Source: Eledone cirrhosa (taxonomy: Eukaryota). From it: DNA of 64,000 nucleotides. The notes below the pieces were generated by a model, which did no database searches, was not told the origin of the DNA, and was given only the letters and a program-made list of their open reading frames with translations. Both the position numbers and the translations under genes were made by a program. The stretch is from assembly GCA_964016885.1 (NCBI GenBank), contig OZ024742.1, forward strand, positions 317,192,001 to 317,256,000, in the 5' to 3' direction. Shown in pieces: positions 1-63,418 of the stretch (the stretch's first letter is position 1; each line of letters opens with the position of its first letter).

Positions 1-184
1 CTTCCAGATATACCAGATTCTTCGTTGTACCGTTTGTGCATAGTATATGAACAATTCTAGGTGCTCCCACCTAGAATAGTGACCTCTAGGAGATGGTTCA
101 TCTTCTGTCTGATTGTAAAACGTGTATCATTGCATAGACGTGGTTGTTCCACGTTTCTCAAAAGGATGATGGGAGTTCCAATCT
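1..184 (-). pseudogene. Helitron RepHel PIF1-helicase C-terminal fragments (internally deleted)
   Basis: Minus strand translates KIGTPIILLRNVEQPRLCNDTRF...LLEVTILG, then VGAPRIVHILCTNGTTKNLVYLE in another frame. These resemble the Helitron PIF1 motifs KVGxPIMLLRN..PRLCNGTR and TKNVVYxE. Confidence 0.7.
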
Positions 185-239
185 TTTATATTATATGTAG
201 ATATAGATATACATAATTAATATAAAAGATGATGCTCAG

Positions 240-445
240 CCAGTCGTCTTCAACCATCACAGCACGCCGTCGCTGCTTGGCTCCAGTGTTTCGTTGGCGT
301 TGTTCAACCAGCTCCTCTTCATTCATGGCGGCACGTCTTCGCCTCTGAAGTTCGGCGTTCCGATGGCGCTGTTCGGCCCGTTTTTCTTCATTCCTGGCTG
401 CACGCCGTCGCCGCTGTAATTCACTGTTTGATAAAGTCGAATTGC
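240..445 (-). pseudogene. Helitron N-terminal STPR-like charged repeats
   Basis: ORF 186..593 has three ~23-aa units (ELQRRRRAAxNEE..EQRxRN) on the same strand as the adjacent helicase fragment. Confidence 0.45.
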
Positions 446-769
446 TTTTACTTTCTGTGGAACGCTGCACGAACGCACGCACACATAAACACACGCGCAT
501 GTACATACACACGCACACATGGTAATAGTTACAGCGTTCACTTGGCCTCTGTTTCTTACTCTCCCCTCTCACTCCCTCATTGGCATTATGCATATTAATT
601 TAACTTTCGCGTCGTTGAGGTGGGCGGTGTCGTTTGAAACCTATGAACCACTGATAATCGAGAATTATGACACACAGAATACTGACATTGTTGAAATTCA
701 TATATAGATGTAGGAATTTATTTACAGAGACCGGCACCACAAGGCCTTTTTTGTCGGTATCGTGACGGG

Positions 770-1100
770 TTCATTATTGGTGTTATTGTTGTTGGCACTG
801 TTGCCGCTTCCTGCGAGATGGGGCGATGTTGCTGTTGTTGTCGTTGTTATTGTTGCTGTCATTGTCGTTAATTGTCGTTGATTGTTGTTGTAGTTGTCGT
901 TGTCGTTGTCGTTGCTGTTGTCTTGATTATAGCTGTCAAGTGTGTATATCGCCCAATCTCAGAGTTCTGTTTATTTCTGTTGTTGTCGTCGTTGTTGTTA
1001 TTGTTGTTGTTGTTAGCTGGTCATTACTATCACTGCGACTGCAACGGCCAGTGTAGGTGATGCTGTTCGGTGTTTGCTGATATTGTTGTTGTTGTTGTTG
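770..1100. repeat. Degenerate (GTT/GTC)n trinucleotide repeat
   Basis: Seen directly; explains the poly-V/L/C ORFs. Confidence 0.9.
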
Positions 1101-1566
1101 TCTTGAATGTGGTTTTCATCAAAATGTGAATGTTACCCTCCCTCAGAGTTACATTTATTGCTTTCACTATCTGCTGGATTCTAGCTACGTATAGACTATC
1201 GTTCGATACTGGTCAACACAACACACTTGAGGGATTACTCTTTTGATAATTTATGACCCTAATTCAGTGGGGGCGGGATGCACGTGAGTTCTGATTTCGC
1301 TACTTGACACATATGAATAACACTTTGCTCCAGAAAACACGACGGCTGGGAAACCCTCTTAGAACTCATGCCTGCCAGGCGCACGAGCAGAAGGACGTGT
1401 TTTTCCTACCGGCGGCATATAACGAAATCGAATTTCATCTAAGGATACCGTTCTCATAACAACAAAAAATGCATGAATTACACCTTTATTGCATGGGAGA
1501 ACCCTTGATATAATTATACTGAATAAACGATTTATGTAACATCAGCATCTTTCTTAATGTTATTAT

Positions 1567-1753
1567 TGGATTGGCAGTATCGCTAGAGGGTCTGACGCGA
1601 TACTTTGTAGCATAGAGCTATGTCCCTTTATCGTCTGAGTTTAAATCCCGCCGAGGTTATCTTTGGCTTTCATCCTTACGGGGTCGATAAAATAAAGTAC
1701 CAGCAATGTACTGGGATAATTGCTGGCCTTGTGCCAAAAAGTAGAAACAATTA
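1567..1753 (+). mobile_element. tRNA-derived SINE (family S1)
   Basis: Head TGGCAGTATCG..GAGTTTAAATCCC (A/B-box like), central CTTTCATCCTTACGGGGTCGATAAAATAAAGTACCAG (Meta-SINE-like from memory), tail GGCCTTGTGCCAAAAAGTAGAAAC(ATT)n. Many copies in the window. Confidence 0.85.
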
Positions 1754-1879
1754 TTATACTAAATCTCCATCGTAACTACAAATTATGAATGAGAGCTTTC
1801 TCCTGCTTGCTCCTGTTTTTACCAAAACAATCTCTTCGGAACACACACACACACACACACACATATATATGTATATAGT

Positions 1880-2570
1880 TTTGCGAGGTGTTTGATATGA
1901 AATCGTGTGTTAGTACTATACGAACATGCCAGACAACAACACGACGGTAACATAGACAACATAGAAGTTAGAATAATATCTAAACATAGAAATGACCCAG
2001 CAGATAGGCAAATCAGAGAGGCCAGCGAAATAGAACTTAGAAGGCCAAGGCTAAACAGAAAAAATGAATGGAATAACAACACCCAAACAAACAACACTGA
2101 CCTAAGAGAAGTATAAATAAATAAATACATACACAAGCACAATAACAACAAACACATATAAACACACACTAGTAAACTAAGATAGAATACATTAACCAAT
2201 ACACAGTCACCCAAACAAGAACACACATCAAACAAAACACTATACACACACGCAAACGCGTGCGCAGAGAAGACAAAAAAATAAACAAATAAATAAATAA
2301 ATAAATAAACAAACTAAATAAAGATGGCGTAAGCATACAATGCAACGGGAGGAAACATAATAGCACCACTGACGATGTTGCAGATGTGCAACGAAAGAAC
2401 TTTGATAGACTATATATATGTGTTTGTGTCTTTATTGTATCTGTATTTTTGACCGTTGGTCAGTCAATGGCAACATTGAGGACCGAATTAATTAGATTAC
2501 CGATATAAAAGACACAGAAGCGAAAACCAACCAAACAGTGAGTGTCTTCTGTTATTAATTCTGACAATAT
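1880..2570 (+). mobile_element. 5'-truncated PLE: GIY-YIG C-terminus plus 3' UTR
   Basis: VLYEHARQQHDG...RQIREA..I...PRLNRKNEW (ORF 1907..2116) is homologous to ORF 11623..11892; HHR downstream; (TA)n at the left edge. Confidence 0.8.
2367..2405 (+). ncRNA. Minimal type I hammerhead ribozyme
   Basis: CA-CTGACGA-T-GTTGCA-gatg-TGCAAC-GAAA-GAAC-TT-TG; core intact, stems I and III weak. Confidence 0.7.
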
Positions 2571-2584
2571 TACACAAATATGAC

Positions 2585-3465
2585 TTGATAAACACAAATA
2601 CCAACATATTCATATTTGTATTGTAAATGACCAGGTTAGCTAGATTGAAATATACTAATAATAATAATACATTTTGGCCTGTCTCGATTTAAGATAATAA
2701 ATCAATAAAAACAAATCATATTGGCAATGGCCGTAGTGCTTGGACAAATTTAAATTTCAAAATCAAACCTGTTCCGTAGACAGGTTTAAACGTTAAAATC
2801 CAAATATGTTTCGAATAATGAAAAAGTGAAAGAATACCGCATTTTGATCTCCTCAGCAAGCACTATAAAAATTAGTATGTTTCACTTCAAAATATTTAGA
2901 AAGACTGATCAACGCACATGGTATTTCACGCGGTTATCCAGTGTCTAGCTGTCACATACTCGTGCTGCTAGAAATAACAGCCGTTTGTATGGGGCTAAAT
3001 TCAGCTCAACAAAGGAGCAGTGATACTATCAATAATAATGAGTTCAAAACTCAGGCAGTCTTTTACTTTGCTGTTATTTCTAGCAGCACGAGTATGTGAC
3101 AGCTAGACACTGGATAACCGCGTGAAATACCATGTGCGTTGATCAGTCTTTCTAAATATTTTGAAGTGAAACATACCAATTGTTATAGTGCTTGCTGAGG
3201 AGATCAAAATGCGGTATTCTTTCACTTTTTCATTATTCGAAACATATTTGGATTTTAACGTTTAAACCTGTCTACGGAACAGGTTTGATTTTGAAATTTA
3301 AATTTGTCCAAGCACTACGGCCATTGCCAATATGATTTGTTTTTATTGATTTATTATCTTAAATCGAGACAGGCAAAATGTATTATTATTATTAGTATAT
3401 TTCAATCTAGCTAACCTGGTCATTTACAATACAAATATGAATATGTTGGTATTTGTGTTTATCAA
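2585..3465. repeat. Long inverted repeat, ~397-bp arms (2585-2981, 3070-3465), 88-bp spacer
   Basis: Arms are near-perfect reverse complements, only a few differences by eye. Confidence 0.95.
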
Positions 3466-3497
3466 ATATATTAATTTACATTAACTTGTATATATAT

Positions 3498-3873
3498 ATA
3501 TACTATAAATACATTTATGTATATACATCGCTATTTTAGAGCACCAATACTAATACTTAATTTTTGCTGGACCGGCAATCGCTCTGTGTAATCAGCTCCT
3601 GGTTATTACTGGAATTCTATAAGAATCCAGCTTCTATAATTTTCGGCAAAGGCTAGGTAGTGCGTGGTTTTGATAAACGGCAAACAACGAGAAACAGATT
3701 GACAGCTTCTCTCACTGCCTTTGCCAAAAATAAGTAAGTGACATAGTCACTACTTTAAAACTAGTAGTGAATGGTCTTCTAAATGTTTTTTTGATTAAAC
3801 ATACGGTATATTGCCAAATATACTATACATACATTCATGTATACATCGCTATTTCAGAGCAACAATATTAATA
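3498..3873. repeat. ~57-bp direct repeats (3498-3555, 3818-3873) bounding a ~320-bp unit in (TA)n
   Basis: atatactata.atacatt.atgt..atacatcgctattt.agagca.caata.taata occurs twice. Confidence 0.75.
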
Positions 3874-3884
3874 TATATATGTAT

Positions 3885-3916
<32 letters not shown>

Positions 3917-4600
3917 TCAATGCAAGGGGATGCAGAACAATTATATGAAAGACGTAAAATAAGAAAATTATAAAAATTAACTTACTTACTAAAATTTCCG
4001 AATGGAACGCATGGAGAAACCTTTCGTCATCAGGAAGCTCATTCTCAGCTAAGTTACCAGGCGATGCGTGGACACAGGGAACTTATACAAAAATAATTCA
4101 GTGGATGGAAAAAAGCAAGCGTGGACTAAATTCCAAACATTGAAAAAATCACTGCCTACTTGGTCGGTGGCAAATTCAAAAGAATCAATCACGTGACATC
4201 GAGGTTAATGTTGAGCAAAAATTTGCCGAAACTGCTACTATAGTTCATAGTAATGGCTCGGCCACTGTCTTTTTAACACCCCACTCCTCACTGATTAACC
4301 TCGATGTCACGTGATTGATTCTTTTAAATTTGCCACCGACCAAGTAGGCAGTGATTTTTTCAATGTCTTGGAATTTAGTCCACGCTTGCTTTTTTCCATC
4401 CACTGAATTATTTTTGTATAAGTTCCCTGTGTCCATGCATCGCCTGGTAACTTAGCTGAGAATGAGCTTCCTGATTACGAAAGGTTTCTCCATGCGTTCC
4501 ATTCGGAAACCATGTTTATTCCCTTTCAGAAACTAATTACTTGGAGTGAAATTTTAGTAAGTAAGTTAATTTTTATAATTTTCTTATTTCACGTCTTTCA
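3917..4600. mobile_element. PLE pLTR family C as a fold-back (arms ~3946-4209 and ~4294-4600)
   Basis: Arms are reverse complements, the left lacking ~38 bp; (TA)n on both sides; diverged relative at 58063-58686. HHR-like CTGATGA-CGAA..TTCG-GAAA at 3995-4033(-) and a mutated copy at 4471-4509(+). Confidence 0.8.
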
Positions 4601-4621
4601 TATATATATATATACACACAC

Positions 4622-5202
4622 ATTTTATTCATATGTAACCCATGTGCAACTACGCAGCCCTCCATTCTTCTCATATTTATATTTTTTCCTCAGCTGCGAT
4701 TGTCTGTTTCTTTCTTACTGCTTCGCCTTCTCTCTGTATCTCTCACCTTCTTTTACCCCCTCTGTCAGTCACACTCTCTCTCGACTGGCCTCTTCCTCAC
4801 ACTTCCACTCACTCACTCTCTGCTTCTCCCCCTCTCTCACTTCCTTCCGTTTGACCTGTGTGAAATCCTTTTCTCGCTCACATCTCACCCATGTCGGATG
4901 GTCTGTATATCTCTCTCGTCCATGAATTCACCAAGCTTAAGCTTAATAGATATCATGTACTTGTGTCTTCCTACCTTTCCGTTGCAATACCATCTTTGTT
5001 TGTTTACATGTCTCGCTCGCTTCACGCTATATTACTGGTCCCAATAGCTTTATTTAGATATTGCTCGCACCAACTAGAGGTATATGATTTTTAAAGCGAT
5101 GAAATACCAATGAAGGTTGGAAAATCACTGACGAAGGACTAATTTTATTCATATGTAACCCATGTGCAACCACGCAGCACTCCATTCTTCTCATATTTAT
5201 AT
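4622..5202 (+). mobile_element. Non-coding unit with ~61-bp direct terminal repeats and a partial HHR (pLTR/retrozyme-like)
   Basis: Repeats 4622-4682 and 5142-5202 differ by 2 mismatches. TA-TGATTTT..AAAATCA-CTGACGA-AGGAC at 5083-5139; (TA)n flanks. Confidence 0.55.
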
Positions 5203-13006: not shown

Positions 13007-13195
13007 ATATATATATAAGAGAGTATTGAAGTTTGCTTGAAGCATTGTGGAATAATAAGTAAATATCTTTAAGTCGTTTGGAAGCCTCGACAATGCAAAT
13101 GGGTAAATCTCCGGGTAACAAGATCCGGTGGTGGAGAGAGAGATGTAATTGGGTGTACGTTGAGATGCGTGGTGTGTATAAGATGTGTGGAAGAA

Positions 13196-44744: not shown

Positions 44745-44917
44745 AATGATGATTTCCTACGATTGATGAAACAGTTTGAGATCTTCAGAAGTCATTCCTA
44801 TAAGTTCTCAATAATCTTCGAGCGTATTGCGTACCCTTTTTAAATGGGGTTACTCCCCAACATAACTTGGGAGACTCCACATACAAACGCACACACAAAG
44901 CTATATATATATATATA

Positions 44918-45111
44918 TAACAAAGGAATTGTGGTAAGGAACCAGATGGACCATAACGCACCAGATTAGTCAATACTTAGGGTAGTAGAGTAGGAAATAG
45001 GAAAAAGTATGACCCCGACGGCAGAGCTCAAGCCGTTTCGACGGCTATTTCTGGACGCAGAAATATCCATCGAAACGGCTTGAGCTCTGCCGTCGGGGTC
45101 ATACGTTTTCC

Positions 45112-45114
<3 letters not shown>
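44918..45114. mobile_element. Family A element as a fold-back (arms 44997-45053, 45058-45114; 4-nt loop)
   Basis: Carries the 3' half of an HHR (GTC-GAAA-CGGC..GCCG-TC); (TA)n on both sides. Confidence 0.85.
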
Positions 45115-59757: not shown

Positions 59758-60037
59758 TATTGAAGTTTGCTTGAAGCATTGTGGAACAATAAGTAAATAT
59801 CTTTAAGTCGTTTGGAAGCCTCGACAATGCAAATGGGTAAATCTCCGGGTAACAAGGTCCGGTGGTGGAGAGAGAGATGTAAGTGGGTGTACGTTGAGAT
59901 GCGTGGTGTGTATAAGATGTGTAGAATGAACGCATCTCAACGTACACCCACTTACATCTCTCTCTCCACCACCGGACCTTGTTACCCGGAGATTTACCCA
60001 TTTGCATTGTCGAGGCTTCCAAACGACTTAAAGATAT
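59753..60037. mobile_element. Family D pLTR-only fold-back (arms 59797-59904, 59930-60037)
   Basis: Homologous to 13017-13195; identical 108-bp arms; (TA)n flanks. Confidence 0.92.
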
Positions 60038-60050
60038 ATATATATATATA

Positions 60051-60162
60051 TAACGAAGGAAATGTGGTAAGGAACTAGATGGACCATAACGCACCAAAGT
60101 ACTCAATACTTAGGGTAGTAGAGTGGGTAATAGGAACGAGTAGGGGTCCTACTCGTTCCTAT
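60051..60162. mobile_element. Family A with 15-bp terminal hairpin (60130-60162)
   Basis: ATAGGAACGAGTAGG-ggt-CCTACTCGTTCCTAT. Confidence 0.85.
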
Positions 60163-60258: not shown

Positions 60259-60415
60259 TATAATAGAATATAAAAGAAAAGCGAACACAGATATATAGAT
60301 ATATGTGTTCAAATCGTAAGGGACCTGATTCGCCAAGGTGAAAAATCAGGTCCCTTATGATTTGAACACATATATCTATATATCTGTGTTCGCTTTTCTT
60401 TTATATTCTATTATA
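60259..60415. repeat. Fold-back, 72-bp arms (60259-60330, 60344-60415)
   Basis: One mismatch; ends in (TA)n. Confidence 0.92.
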
Positions 60416-60427
60416 TATATATATATA

Positions 60428-60550
60428 AACAAAGAAATTGTGGTAATAAACCAGGTAGACCATAACGCACCAGAGTAGATACTTAGGGTAGTTTGGATCT
60501 ATTTGTCGAAACGGCCGGAGCTCAGCCGTCGGGGTCCTGACTCTTTTCTT
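60428..60550. mobile_element. Family A, two oppositely oriented segments
   Basis: 60428-60491 is minus and ~60498-60550 is plus; (TA)n flanks. Confidence 0.75.
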
Positions 60551-60582
60551 ATATATATAAATATATATAGAAGTAGTAACCA

Positions 60583-61448
60583 AACAGTTAGTTTACCATA
60601 CCGAGAACAATTGTTTCACCTTATGCGGATCTTCAGCTCGGACTGGTCTTGGTTATACGGAACAGGGAGAACAACCGTATGAACGCCCATGCGCAGAAAC
60701 GGTGACTTCACCCAAGCGATACAAAACCACGGTGAAAGGTGTAAGGGAGATAACTGTGAAAGTCCGGAATAAAATGCTCGAGTTGATTAAAAAATTAGAA
60801 TGTTGTTGTTATTCAATCTGGAGCTTTGTAGTTATTCATGAGGTGTTTCCAGACATGTGGACAACGTGAGAAGATTTCATTTCCTGAATTTAGGCAATCG
60901 CCATTCCGTAATCTCCTTAGAATATTTATCATTTCTTCAATACACAGTCCACAAGACGGATTTCCCCTTGCCTATGGCTTCGACTTAGTGATGGCTTTCC
61001 ATTGAATAGAGTAGTCTATACCTGAGTCTTTGGGGGACCATATGTGGCTCAGGAGCTTCGTGGGTGATCGTTTGTCCAGGTATCTAAAGGTCGACTGATG
61101 GTTCAGAAAGCGTTCCTTAAATCGGCTTGAAGCTTGTCCTCTTCAACAGCAATGCAACAGACCCGTTGTAGTGTATGAAGCTGTGGTCACTTCCAACCGA
61201 CCAAATCAACCACAGGAGGTCAAATCCTATGTGGGTATGGCGGAGGGTTAGGGTTAAGTTAGGGTTATATCTTTCGCAGTTACTCCCCTTACACCTTTCC
61301 CCCGTGGTTTTATATCGCTTGGGGGAAGTGACCGTTTCTGCGCAGGCGCGTTCATACGGTTGCTCTTCTTGTTCTGTATAACCATGACCAGTCCGAGCTG
61401 ATCCGCATAAGGTGAAACAATTGTTCTCAGTATGGTGAACTAACTGTT
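60583..61448 (-). mobile_element. PLE family B: split GIY-YIG between inverted pLTRs (60583-60762, 61271-61448)
   Basis: Minus 61124->60813 reads [42 protein letters not shown]; plus 61135-61248 reads [22 protein letters not shown]. Confidence 0.85.
60601..60641 (-). ncRNA. Minimal hammerhead ribozyme, intact core
   Basis: RC: CCGAG-CTGAAGA-T-CC-gcataa-GG-T-GAAA-CAATTG-TT-CTCGG; the mirror copy at 61393-61430 lacks 3 nt of core. Confidence 0.8.
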
Positions 61449-61524
61449 GTGTTTCCATTTCTACCAAACTCGTCCCATGGACTGAGTGCTCTACCACTAC
61501 GGATATTACCTTCCAGTGTTCTAC

Positions 61525-61665
<141 letters not shown>

Positions 61666-63121: not shown

Positions 63122-63158
<37 letters not shown>

Positions 63159-63163
<5 letters not shown>

Positions 63164-63381
63164 AAAAAGTATGACCCCGACGGCAGAGCTCAAGCCGTTT
63201 CGACGGCTATTTCTGGACGACAGTTAGTTTACCATACTGAGAACAGTCCAGAAATAGCCGTCGAAACGGCTTGAGCTCTGCCGTCGGGGTCATACTTTTT
63301 CCTATTTTCCACTCTACTACCCTAAGTATTGAGTACTCTGGTGCGTTATGGTCCATCTGGTTCCTTACCACAATTCCTTTG

Positions 63382-63383
<2 letters not shown>
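63159..63383. mobile_element. Family A fold-back, perfect 60-bp arms (63159-63218, 63246-63305)
   Basis: 27-nt loop derived from family B; (TA)n on both sides. Confidence 0.9.

Positions 63384-63418
<35 letters not shown>

What the first reader, a model, noticed from the sequence alone, without database searches (positions are those of the whole stretch)
63159..63305. Hairpin loop captured from a different ribozyme-bearing family
Seen: 26 of the 27 loop nt (63219-63245, GACAGTTAGTTTACCATACTGAGAACA) match the family B terminus with one mismatch, both at 60584-60609 and as the RC of 61422-61447. That segment spans the family B HHR cleavage site and downstream tail. Inference: the RT switched template between two PLE RNAs, or patched the junction from DNA ~2 kb away, while joining the two arms.
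Basis: partly seen in the sequence, partly recalled or inferred. Interest (0 to 1): 0.7.

Follow-up and report, generated by a model that had tools for sequence, protein, structure and literature searches.

The report
Jumping-gene junction patched with neighbouring DNA
The hairpin is two head-to-head copies of one Penelope-like jumping-gene end, and the 27 bases between them were likely copied from another jumping gene lying about 2 kb away during end-joining, a local patch also seen at sister insertions, not a swap between two ribozyme RNAs.

Summary
Observation confirmed: perfect 60-bp arms; 26 of 27 loop bases match family B with one mismatch at both cited places. The loop is not native: A and B are separate Penelope-like elements (PLEs), and the A-B joint occurs once in 3 Gb.

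The hairpin is one of over a thousand head-to-head A insertions in (TA)n, with a fixed inner end, one short and one long tail, and variable fillers. The donor is likely local DNA. The loop carries both private variants of the two neighbouring B copies, a pair found in 12 of 7,205 other exact B ends, and B lies within 3 kb of only 1 of 80 A copies. A sister junction holds a 25-mer found exactly twice in the genome, 737 bp apart, with microhomology. The captured piece crosses the predicted B cleavage site, and no other A junction ends there, so a jump onto cleaved B RNA is unsupported.

Best model: two cDNAs primed on both cut strands, joined by polymerase-theta-like templated end-joining; the enzyme is not shown. 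Unexplained: the loop mixes both neighbours' variants. The layout is known (this scan noted it in another genome); I found no paper on local fillers in PLEs.

The parts
63125..63161 (.). (TA)n target, left side; last bases shared with the left arm
   Evidence: sequence
63159..63218 (-). Left arm: short-tail copy of the family A terminal repeat (first 58-60 nt of the unit), inverted
63219..63245 (.). Junction filler, 27 nt; 63220-63245 is family B sequence (sense on the minus strand); the first 1-3 nt may be a re-copy of the A arm; A63245 is also the usual base before A's inner end (66 of 89)
63246..63305 (+). Right arm: family A unit from its fixed inner end; holds only the 3' half of A's hammerhead motif (GAAAC, helix III, predicted cut after 63285, helix I 3' strand)
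63306..63383 (+). Long tail of family A, present on one arm only
63383..63412 (.). (TA)n target, right side
   Evidence: sequence
60584..60609 (-). Candidate donor 1: short-tail end of the neighbouring family B insertion; shares the rare GGTAAAC variant with the loop
61422..61447 (+). Candidate donor 2: long-tail end of the same B insertion; shares the CTCAG variant and gives 4 of 5 matching bases across the left joint
60568..61535 (.). Older head-to-head family B PLE insertion: inverted terminal repeats about 87% alike, minimal hammerhead motif, broken GIY-YIG coding pieces between

Best explanation
The hairpin is a head-to-head insertion of two copies of one Penelope-like element end in a (TA)n tract, and its 27-nt loop is a junction filler that was likely copied from the family B copy 1.8-2.6 kb away while the two cDNA ends were being joined. 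Shown: the layout, the foreign origin of the loop, its uniqueness, and exact local donors at sister junctions. Inferred steps: (1) the element's endonuclease cuts both strands of the (TA)n tract; (2) each 3' end primes reverse transcription on the same short RNA at one of two start points about 78 nt apart, giving one short and one long tail; (3) both cDNAs run to the RNA's 5' end, a likely transcription start; (4) the two free cDNA ends have little to anneal to, so one is extended in short bursts on whatever it can pair with, most often the arms themselves and sometimes chromosomal DNA 0.7-5 kb away; (5) the ends are then joined over 1-2 matching bases. The signature fits polymerase-theta-mediated end joining; the enzyme is not identified.
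For: Recurrent layout: 58 of 86 classified A ends in 80 position-ordered regions are head-to-head with one short and one long tail, none long+long or short+short; about 1,400 junctions with 13-20 nt fillers against 14/19 for the reversed control. Both arms from one template: 192 shared variants in 106 pairs against mean 47, maximum 74, in 500 shuffles. Two separate cDNAs: in 3 of 89 ends (L146, L156, L204) the short arm is whole while the long arm stops before the shared part; the purified anole PLE protein cuts and extends both strands and starts at two sites (PMC11167929). Local donor here: GGTAAAC in 121 of 7,206 exact B ends, both variants in 12 of 7,205 others; B within 3 kb of 1 of 80 A copies; likelihood ratio local versus distant 57-4,800 over my assumed range. 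Local donors elsewhere: 3 of 35 other fillers match their own flank better than all 118 control regions, p 0.003, and 5 of 35 have at most one control as good, p 0.0003. L227: 25 of 25 nt, opposite strand, 737 bp away, exact 25-mer only twice in the genome, 4-nt microhomology. L129: 24-nt exact match 1.26 kb away, 5-nt microhomology.
Against: Neither neighbour matches the loop exactly, and the arms have no private difference, so a later mutation in the loop is a roughly 1-10% event by my estimate. Microhomology at this junction is short (2 nt left, 1 nt right). About 30 of the 35 sister fillers, which I picked by eye as foreign-looking, have no clear donor within 5 kb. The L129 donor is low-complexity and the L122 match is only 13 nt. 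Sequence cannot tell DNA from a local unspliced transcript as template, nor polymerase theta from the element's own reverse transcriptase. Long-arm truncations could be later deletions in palindromes. Twelve distant B copies match the loop exactly.
Confidence: 0.7

Rival explanations
1. The element's own reverse transcriptase made the filler: after reaching the RNA's 5' end it jumped to nearby DNA or to a nascent local transcript, perhaps to both B arms in turn, before the join.
For: Fits every locality result. For donor 1 the top-strand filler is antisense to B RNA, as a continued cDNA would be. R2 cDNA ends prime extra synthesis on the cDNA or on nearby rDNA (PMC11371274, passages; enzyme not settled in what I read). 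Template jumps were proposed for rotifer PLE inserts (PMC3846280). A two-donor copy would explain both variants.
Against: No direct evidence. Short patchwork fillers primed by minimal pairing are the described mark of polymerase theta (PMC12426944). Sister donors lie on either strand and either side.
Confidence: 0.17
2. The reverse transcriptase switched from family A RNA to a family B RNA from elsewhere in the genome, possibly at the ribozyme-cut end.
For: Polarity fits; B is abundant (at least 7,206 exact ends); 12 distant copies match the loop exactly; R2 junctions can capture extra RNA templates such as U6 (PMC11371274).
Against: The piece runs 4 nt past the predicted cut, only the last of which A normally supplies (A in 66 of 89 ends; ACA in 2 of 89). 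The loop differs from the majority B sequence at exactly the two bases private to the neighbours. No second A-B joint of this kind exists. Nearness of B would be a 1 in 80 coincidence.
Confidence: 0.06
3. One cDNA folded back on itself (snap-back) after adding the filler and copied its own last 60 nt, so the second arm is not a second priming event. The local origin of the filler is unaffected.
For: Arms share variants; the short arm ends in TAT, which could pair with the (TA)n target; self-priming was proposed for PLE head-to-head palindromes (PMC3846280); snap-back junctions occur with R2 (PMC11371274).
Against: L146, L156 and L204 have a whole short arm beside a long arm that lacks the shared part; short-tail copies occur with no inverted partner nearby (3); earlier ATA/TAT words in the arm are not used as ends.
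Confidence: 0.2
4. The loop is native sequence of one composite element, or an assembly artefact.
For: Contigs of another run set gave almost no depth over 63226-63233 (0 and 7.3), so the joint was not confirmed independently.
Against: Native A upstream sequence is different and shared by many loci; the joint is unique; fillers vary from copy to copy. Missing depth can come from filtering or an absent allele.
Confidence: 0.02

Closest known systems
Inverted, 5'-truncated pLTR structures of endonuclease-bearing Penelope-like elements (PMC8557442 Fig. 2 legend; Adineta vaga Pen2a, PMC3846280)
   Same: Head-to-head terminal repeats, a tail at one end only, microsatellite or AT-rich targets, hammerhead motif in the repeat, microhomology joins.
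   Different: Here the whole insertion is two short repeat ends with no ORF, the tail is about 78 nt rather than 30-40, the inner end is fixed, and the junctions hold fillers traceable to local DNA, which the passages I read do not describe.
Anolis Poseidon PLE in vitro (PMC11167929)
   Same: Both target strands cut and extended; two reverse-transcription start sites define the tail; AT-rich target.
   Different: That work stops before joining of the cDNA ends; this locus records the join.
Polymerase-theta templated insertions (PMC12426944)
   Same: Short (mostly under 25 nt), patchwork inserts primed by minimal pairing and copied from sequence near the break.
   Different: The joined ends here are two cDNA ends, and the best donors lie 0.7-2.6 kb away; the passages read speak only of flanking sequence. 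Dependence on the enzyme is untested.
R2 snap-back and extra-template 5' junctions (PMC11371274); L1 twin priming (cited there and in 10.1101/2024.12.14.628481)
   Same: cDNA 3' end primes extra synthesis on itself or on nearby DNA before joining; both target strands can prime.
   Different: Different retroelement class; in L1 twin priming the two cDNAs cover different parts of the RNA (own knowledge), here they overlap and give a perfect palindrome.

Membership tests
Endonuclease-bearing Penelope-like element (family A) | C-terminal GIY-YIG endonuclease with two cysteines before the YIG motif | tested here: met
   238-aa frame upstream of the native A end in L034 holds CP..NKC...VIY...AYIG...FK.R...H; Atlas neighbours at 0.96-0.97, one set with GIY-YIG in 23% of members. 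Pfam gave 0 families and the homologue search none.
Endonuclease-bearing Penelope-like element (family A) | Telomerase-related reverse transcriptase in the same ORF, placed by phylogeny | not tested
   No intact ORF was gathered and no tree was built; clade (Neptune or Poseidon) is not assigned.
Endonuclease-bearing Penelope-like element (family A) | Hammerhead motif in the terminal repeat | tested here: met
   Native A reads helix I, UUGA-N-AA, helix II, GAAAC, helix III, GUC, helix I; N is free (A9 C7 G3 T1 of 20). U3-A8 cores are reported in Schistosoma PLEs (PMC4209133). Cleavage not tested. The hairpin holds only the 3' half.
Endonuclease-bearing Penelope-like element (family A) | Inverted 5'-truncated copy and a tail at one end, in microsatellite targets | tested here: met
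   58 of 86 classified ends.
Endonuclease-bearing Penelope-like element (family B) | GIY-YIG coding pieces next to a minimal hammerhead motif; distinct from A | tested here: met
   B piece versus A protein 31% identical over 54 aa, E 4e-10; apart from the loop, the B DNA query found no A sequence in the window.
Polymerase-theta templated insertion | Short insert matching sequence near the break | tested here: met
   This loop, L129, L227, L122; many other fillers match the arms.
Polymerase-theta templated insertion | Microhomology at the priming point | tested here: inconclusive
   4 nt at L227 and 5 nt at L129; only 2 nt (4 of 5 with donor 2) and 1 nt at this locus.
Polymerase-theta templated insertion | Genetic dependence on polymerase theta | not testable with these tools
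   Needs a knockout.
Chimeric retrocopy by RNA template switch at a ribozyme-cut end | Captured piece ends at the cleavage site and the joint recurs | tested here: not met
   Piece crosses the predicted site by 4 nt; one joint in the genome on each side.

The most novel reading that the evidence does not exclude
Penelope-like elements build their head-to-head ends by copying one capped RNA twice from the two strands of a cut, and their telomerase-related reverse transcriptase itself then reaches out to DNA kilobases away to finish the join; here it copied both arms of a neighbouring inverted repeat in register, making a two-donor mosaic. The 1,400-plus junctions of this genome would then be a natural record of that unknown last step.
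Probability: 0.17. Interest if true: 0.72.

Novelty: new variant of a known kind. Interest (0 to 1): 0.42.

Why it matters
How Penelope-like elements form their inverted ends is named as open in PMC8557442 and PMC3846280, and the one in vitro study (PMC11167929) stops before the join. This family gives over a thousand junctions with fixed ends, so every extra base is a readable trace of the joining step. They favour two primings on one RNA followed by end-joining with locally templated fillers. The single loop is a by-product of repair, not a ribozyme exchange, and has no evident function.

Tried and rejected
Loop as the native loop of A's helix II: rejected, native upstream sequence differs. 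Idea that the last four loop bases come from A, so that the B piece ends exactly at the cut: suggested, rejected as query bias by the position-ordered sample (ACA before the inner end in 2 of 89). Rfam: no match at gathering score. Pfam, homologue and phage searches with the A protein piece: nothing. Public runs: the hairpin lay showed near-zero depth in mid-loop for two contig sets and two RAD read sets, and the donor lay did not bridge 60572-60579; neither tells whether the insertion is polymorphic or whether an allele of donor 1 has both variants. One search's test of this loop used only 1.5-kb flanks and missed the donor; searches used 10 kb. In one search, three matches (L218, L219, L222) were dropped as not family A, and L133 and L221 gave no pattern match at the centre. 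Other window hairpins: the 59905-59929 loop matches 13166 over 23 nt including arm, so it looks native to its family; the 60329-60343 loop has no donor (best 10 nt). Literature: 'Penelope' with 'polymerase theta' gave 4 unrelated papers; searches listed no paper on PLE junction fillers. The library lacks most subscription journals and no supplements were read.

Full report
Observation. The arms 63159-63218 and 63246-63305 are perfect reverse complements around a 27-nt loop, and its last 26 bases match 60584-60609 and the reverse complement of 61422-61447 with one mismatch each; nothing else in the window is within 7 mismatches. The right arm continues as a 78-nt tail to 63383 and both ends lie in (TA)n. 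The genome is 3.0 Gb; Atlas neighbours of the A protein are commonest in Mollusca, on few records.

Two separate elements. Where A is not truncated it continues upstream into its own 3' region and an ORF end with a GIY-YIG-type motif (Pfam and the homologue search found nothing). B has its own GIY-YIG pieces, 31% identical to A's over 54 aa, and a minimal hammerhead motif with a predicted GUU/C cut between 60606 and 60605 (Rfam silent). A's motif is whole only in untruncated copies and has a UUGA-N-AA core with N free, the U3-A8 variant reported in PMC4209133 (part 1 of 4 read). The loop-to-arm joint occurs once in the genome. The loop is therefore not native.

The hairpin is a standard product. 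An exact A 35-mer occurs 7,638 times, and head-to-head joints with 13-20 nt between them about 1,400 times, against 14 and 19 for the control. I fetched 80 regions around matches among the first 100 listed. Of 86 classified ends, 58 are head-to-head with one short and one long tail, 17 have native upstream sequence, 10 are solo or other, and 1 is head-to-head with another end; none is long+long or short+short. The inner end is strongly fixed: 66 of 89 ends have A before GTCCAG. The native context TTAGTC resembles an initiator, and the GA seen before 11 of 89 ends could be a copied cap; both readings are recalled and inferred, not tested. The two arms share variants far beyond chance (192 in 106 pairs; shuffles mean 47, maximum 74), so they come from one template; this hairpin has no private difference, against 281 in the 106 pairs, so it is young. 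In L146, L156 and L204 the short arm is whole but the long arm stops before the shared part, which simple fold-back cannot give without a later deletion. With the finding that a purified PLE protein cuts and extends both strands and starts at two sites (PMC11167929, parts 1-2 of 4 read), this favours two primings on one RNA. The layout itself is known (PMC8557442 and PMC3846280, passages read; the latter proposes self-priming instead).

Where fillers come from. Many repeat pieces of the arms or of native upstream sequence. I picked 40 foreign-looking ones by eye from those lists and fetched 10 kb around each; 35 entered the test after three non-A matches were dropped and two gave no pattern match. 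With A sequence masked, 3 of 35 match their own flank better than all 118 control regions and 5 of 35 have at most one control as good (p 0.003 and 0.0003). L227 is the clean case: 25 of 25 bases, opposite strand, 737 bp away, starting with 4 bases shared with the arm end, and that 25-mer occurs exactly twice in the genome, with one more copy at one mismatch elsewhere. L129 copies 24 bases of a GATA-type tract 1.26 kb away after a 5-base match. About 30 of 35 have no clear donor within 5 kb. Of 70 distinct fillers held, only this one resembles the B ends tested.

This filler. The majority B sequence differs from the loop at two bases. One, GGTAAAC, is shared with the 60584 copy and with none of the other 29 loci; genome-wide it is in 121 of 7,206 exact ends. 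Both together are in 13, one being the loop. The other, CTCAG, is a CpG-type change shared with the 61422 copy. A B end lies inside 3 of 80 A-centred 10-kb regions and within 3 kb in 1 of 80. Taking the chance of the second variant arising as 1-10%, my assumption, the odds favour a local over a distant donor by 57 to 4,800. Which neighbour is unresolved: donor 1 gives the rarer base, donor 2 the better match across the left joint. A later CpG change, a converted allele, a copying error or a two-donor mosaic all remain; public runs did not decide it.

The ribozyme link. The piece crosses the predicted cut by 4 nt, and A usually supplies only the last of them, so the template was uncut. Patterns for this B piece joined to an A start on either side find only this locus; they are exact and would miss mutated or differently placed joints. 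B and A share (TA)n targets and A motifs lie within 1.5 kb of 5 of 29 B loci, which can explain why a neighbour was a PLE.

Mechanism and comparison. Short patchwork inserts primed by minimal pairing and copied from near a break are the described mark of polymerase theta (PMC12426944, passages). R2 cDNA ends also prime on themselves or nearby rDNA, and sometimes capture U6 RNA (PMC11371274, passages). I also read passages of 10.1101/2024.12.14.628481 and part 1 of 5 of 10.64898/2026.07.22.740005; neither part covers PLE fillers. Sequence alone cannot name the enzyme or exclude a local transcript. My searches listed no paper on locally templated fillers at PLE junctions; supplements were not read.

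Verdict. Real and foreign to the element, but best read as a repair patch from neighbouring DNA in a known PLE layout. Its value lies in the family-wide set of junctions, which makes the last step of PLE insertion testable. Interest 0.42.

Noticed in passing
L034, L135, L166, L199 (native A upstream of the inner end): Family A's hammerhead core reads UUGA-N-AA (U3-A8 variant) with N free, and its 5' half lies upstream of the fixed inner end, so short copies carry only half the motif.
   Followed up: partly
window 63245; L135-L214: Fixed inner end at A-GTCCAG in a TTAGTC context, with an extra G before it in 11 of 89 ends: possible transcription start and copied cap.
   Followed up: partly
window 61243-61262: The junction inside the older B insertion holds telomere-like TTAGGG repeats; best other match in the window is 12 nt.
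   Followed up: partly
window 44902-45114: A second head-to-head A insertion, opposite orientation, with almost no filler.
   Followed up: partly
window 59789-60045 and 60259-60415: Two more fold-back insertions of other repeat families in (TA)n; the first loop looks native (match at 13166), the second has no donor.
   Followed up: partly
L035:3200-3700: An A end is fused, after a CA, to what looks like a decayed reverse-transcriptase fragment of another element.
   Followed up: no
L031, L033, L034, L038 about 190 nt upstream of the inner end: A splice-donor-like CAG/GT(C)AAGT and an acceptor-like TTTAG at the inner end could bound an intron in A's terminal repeat; untested.
   Followed up: no
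L218, L219 (G000:C2:78931516, 146542443): A different palindromic repeat with the same TCTGGAC...GTCCAG ends and a palindromic centre, not family A.
   Followed up: no
window 60052-60161 and 60428-60570: Diverged or truncated A ends packed with B and other repeats in one (TA)n cluster; the 60428 copy joins a truncated long arm to a short arm.
   Followed up: no
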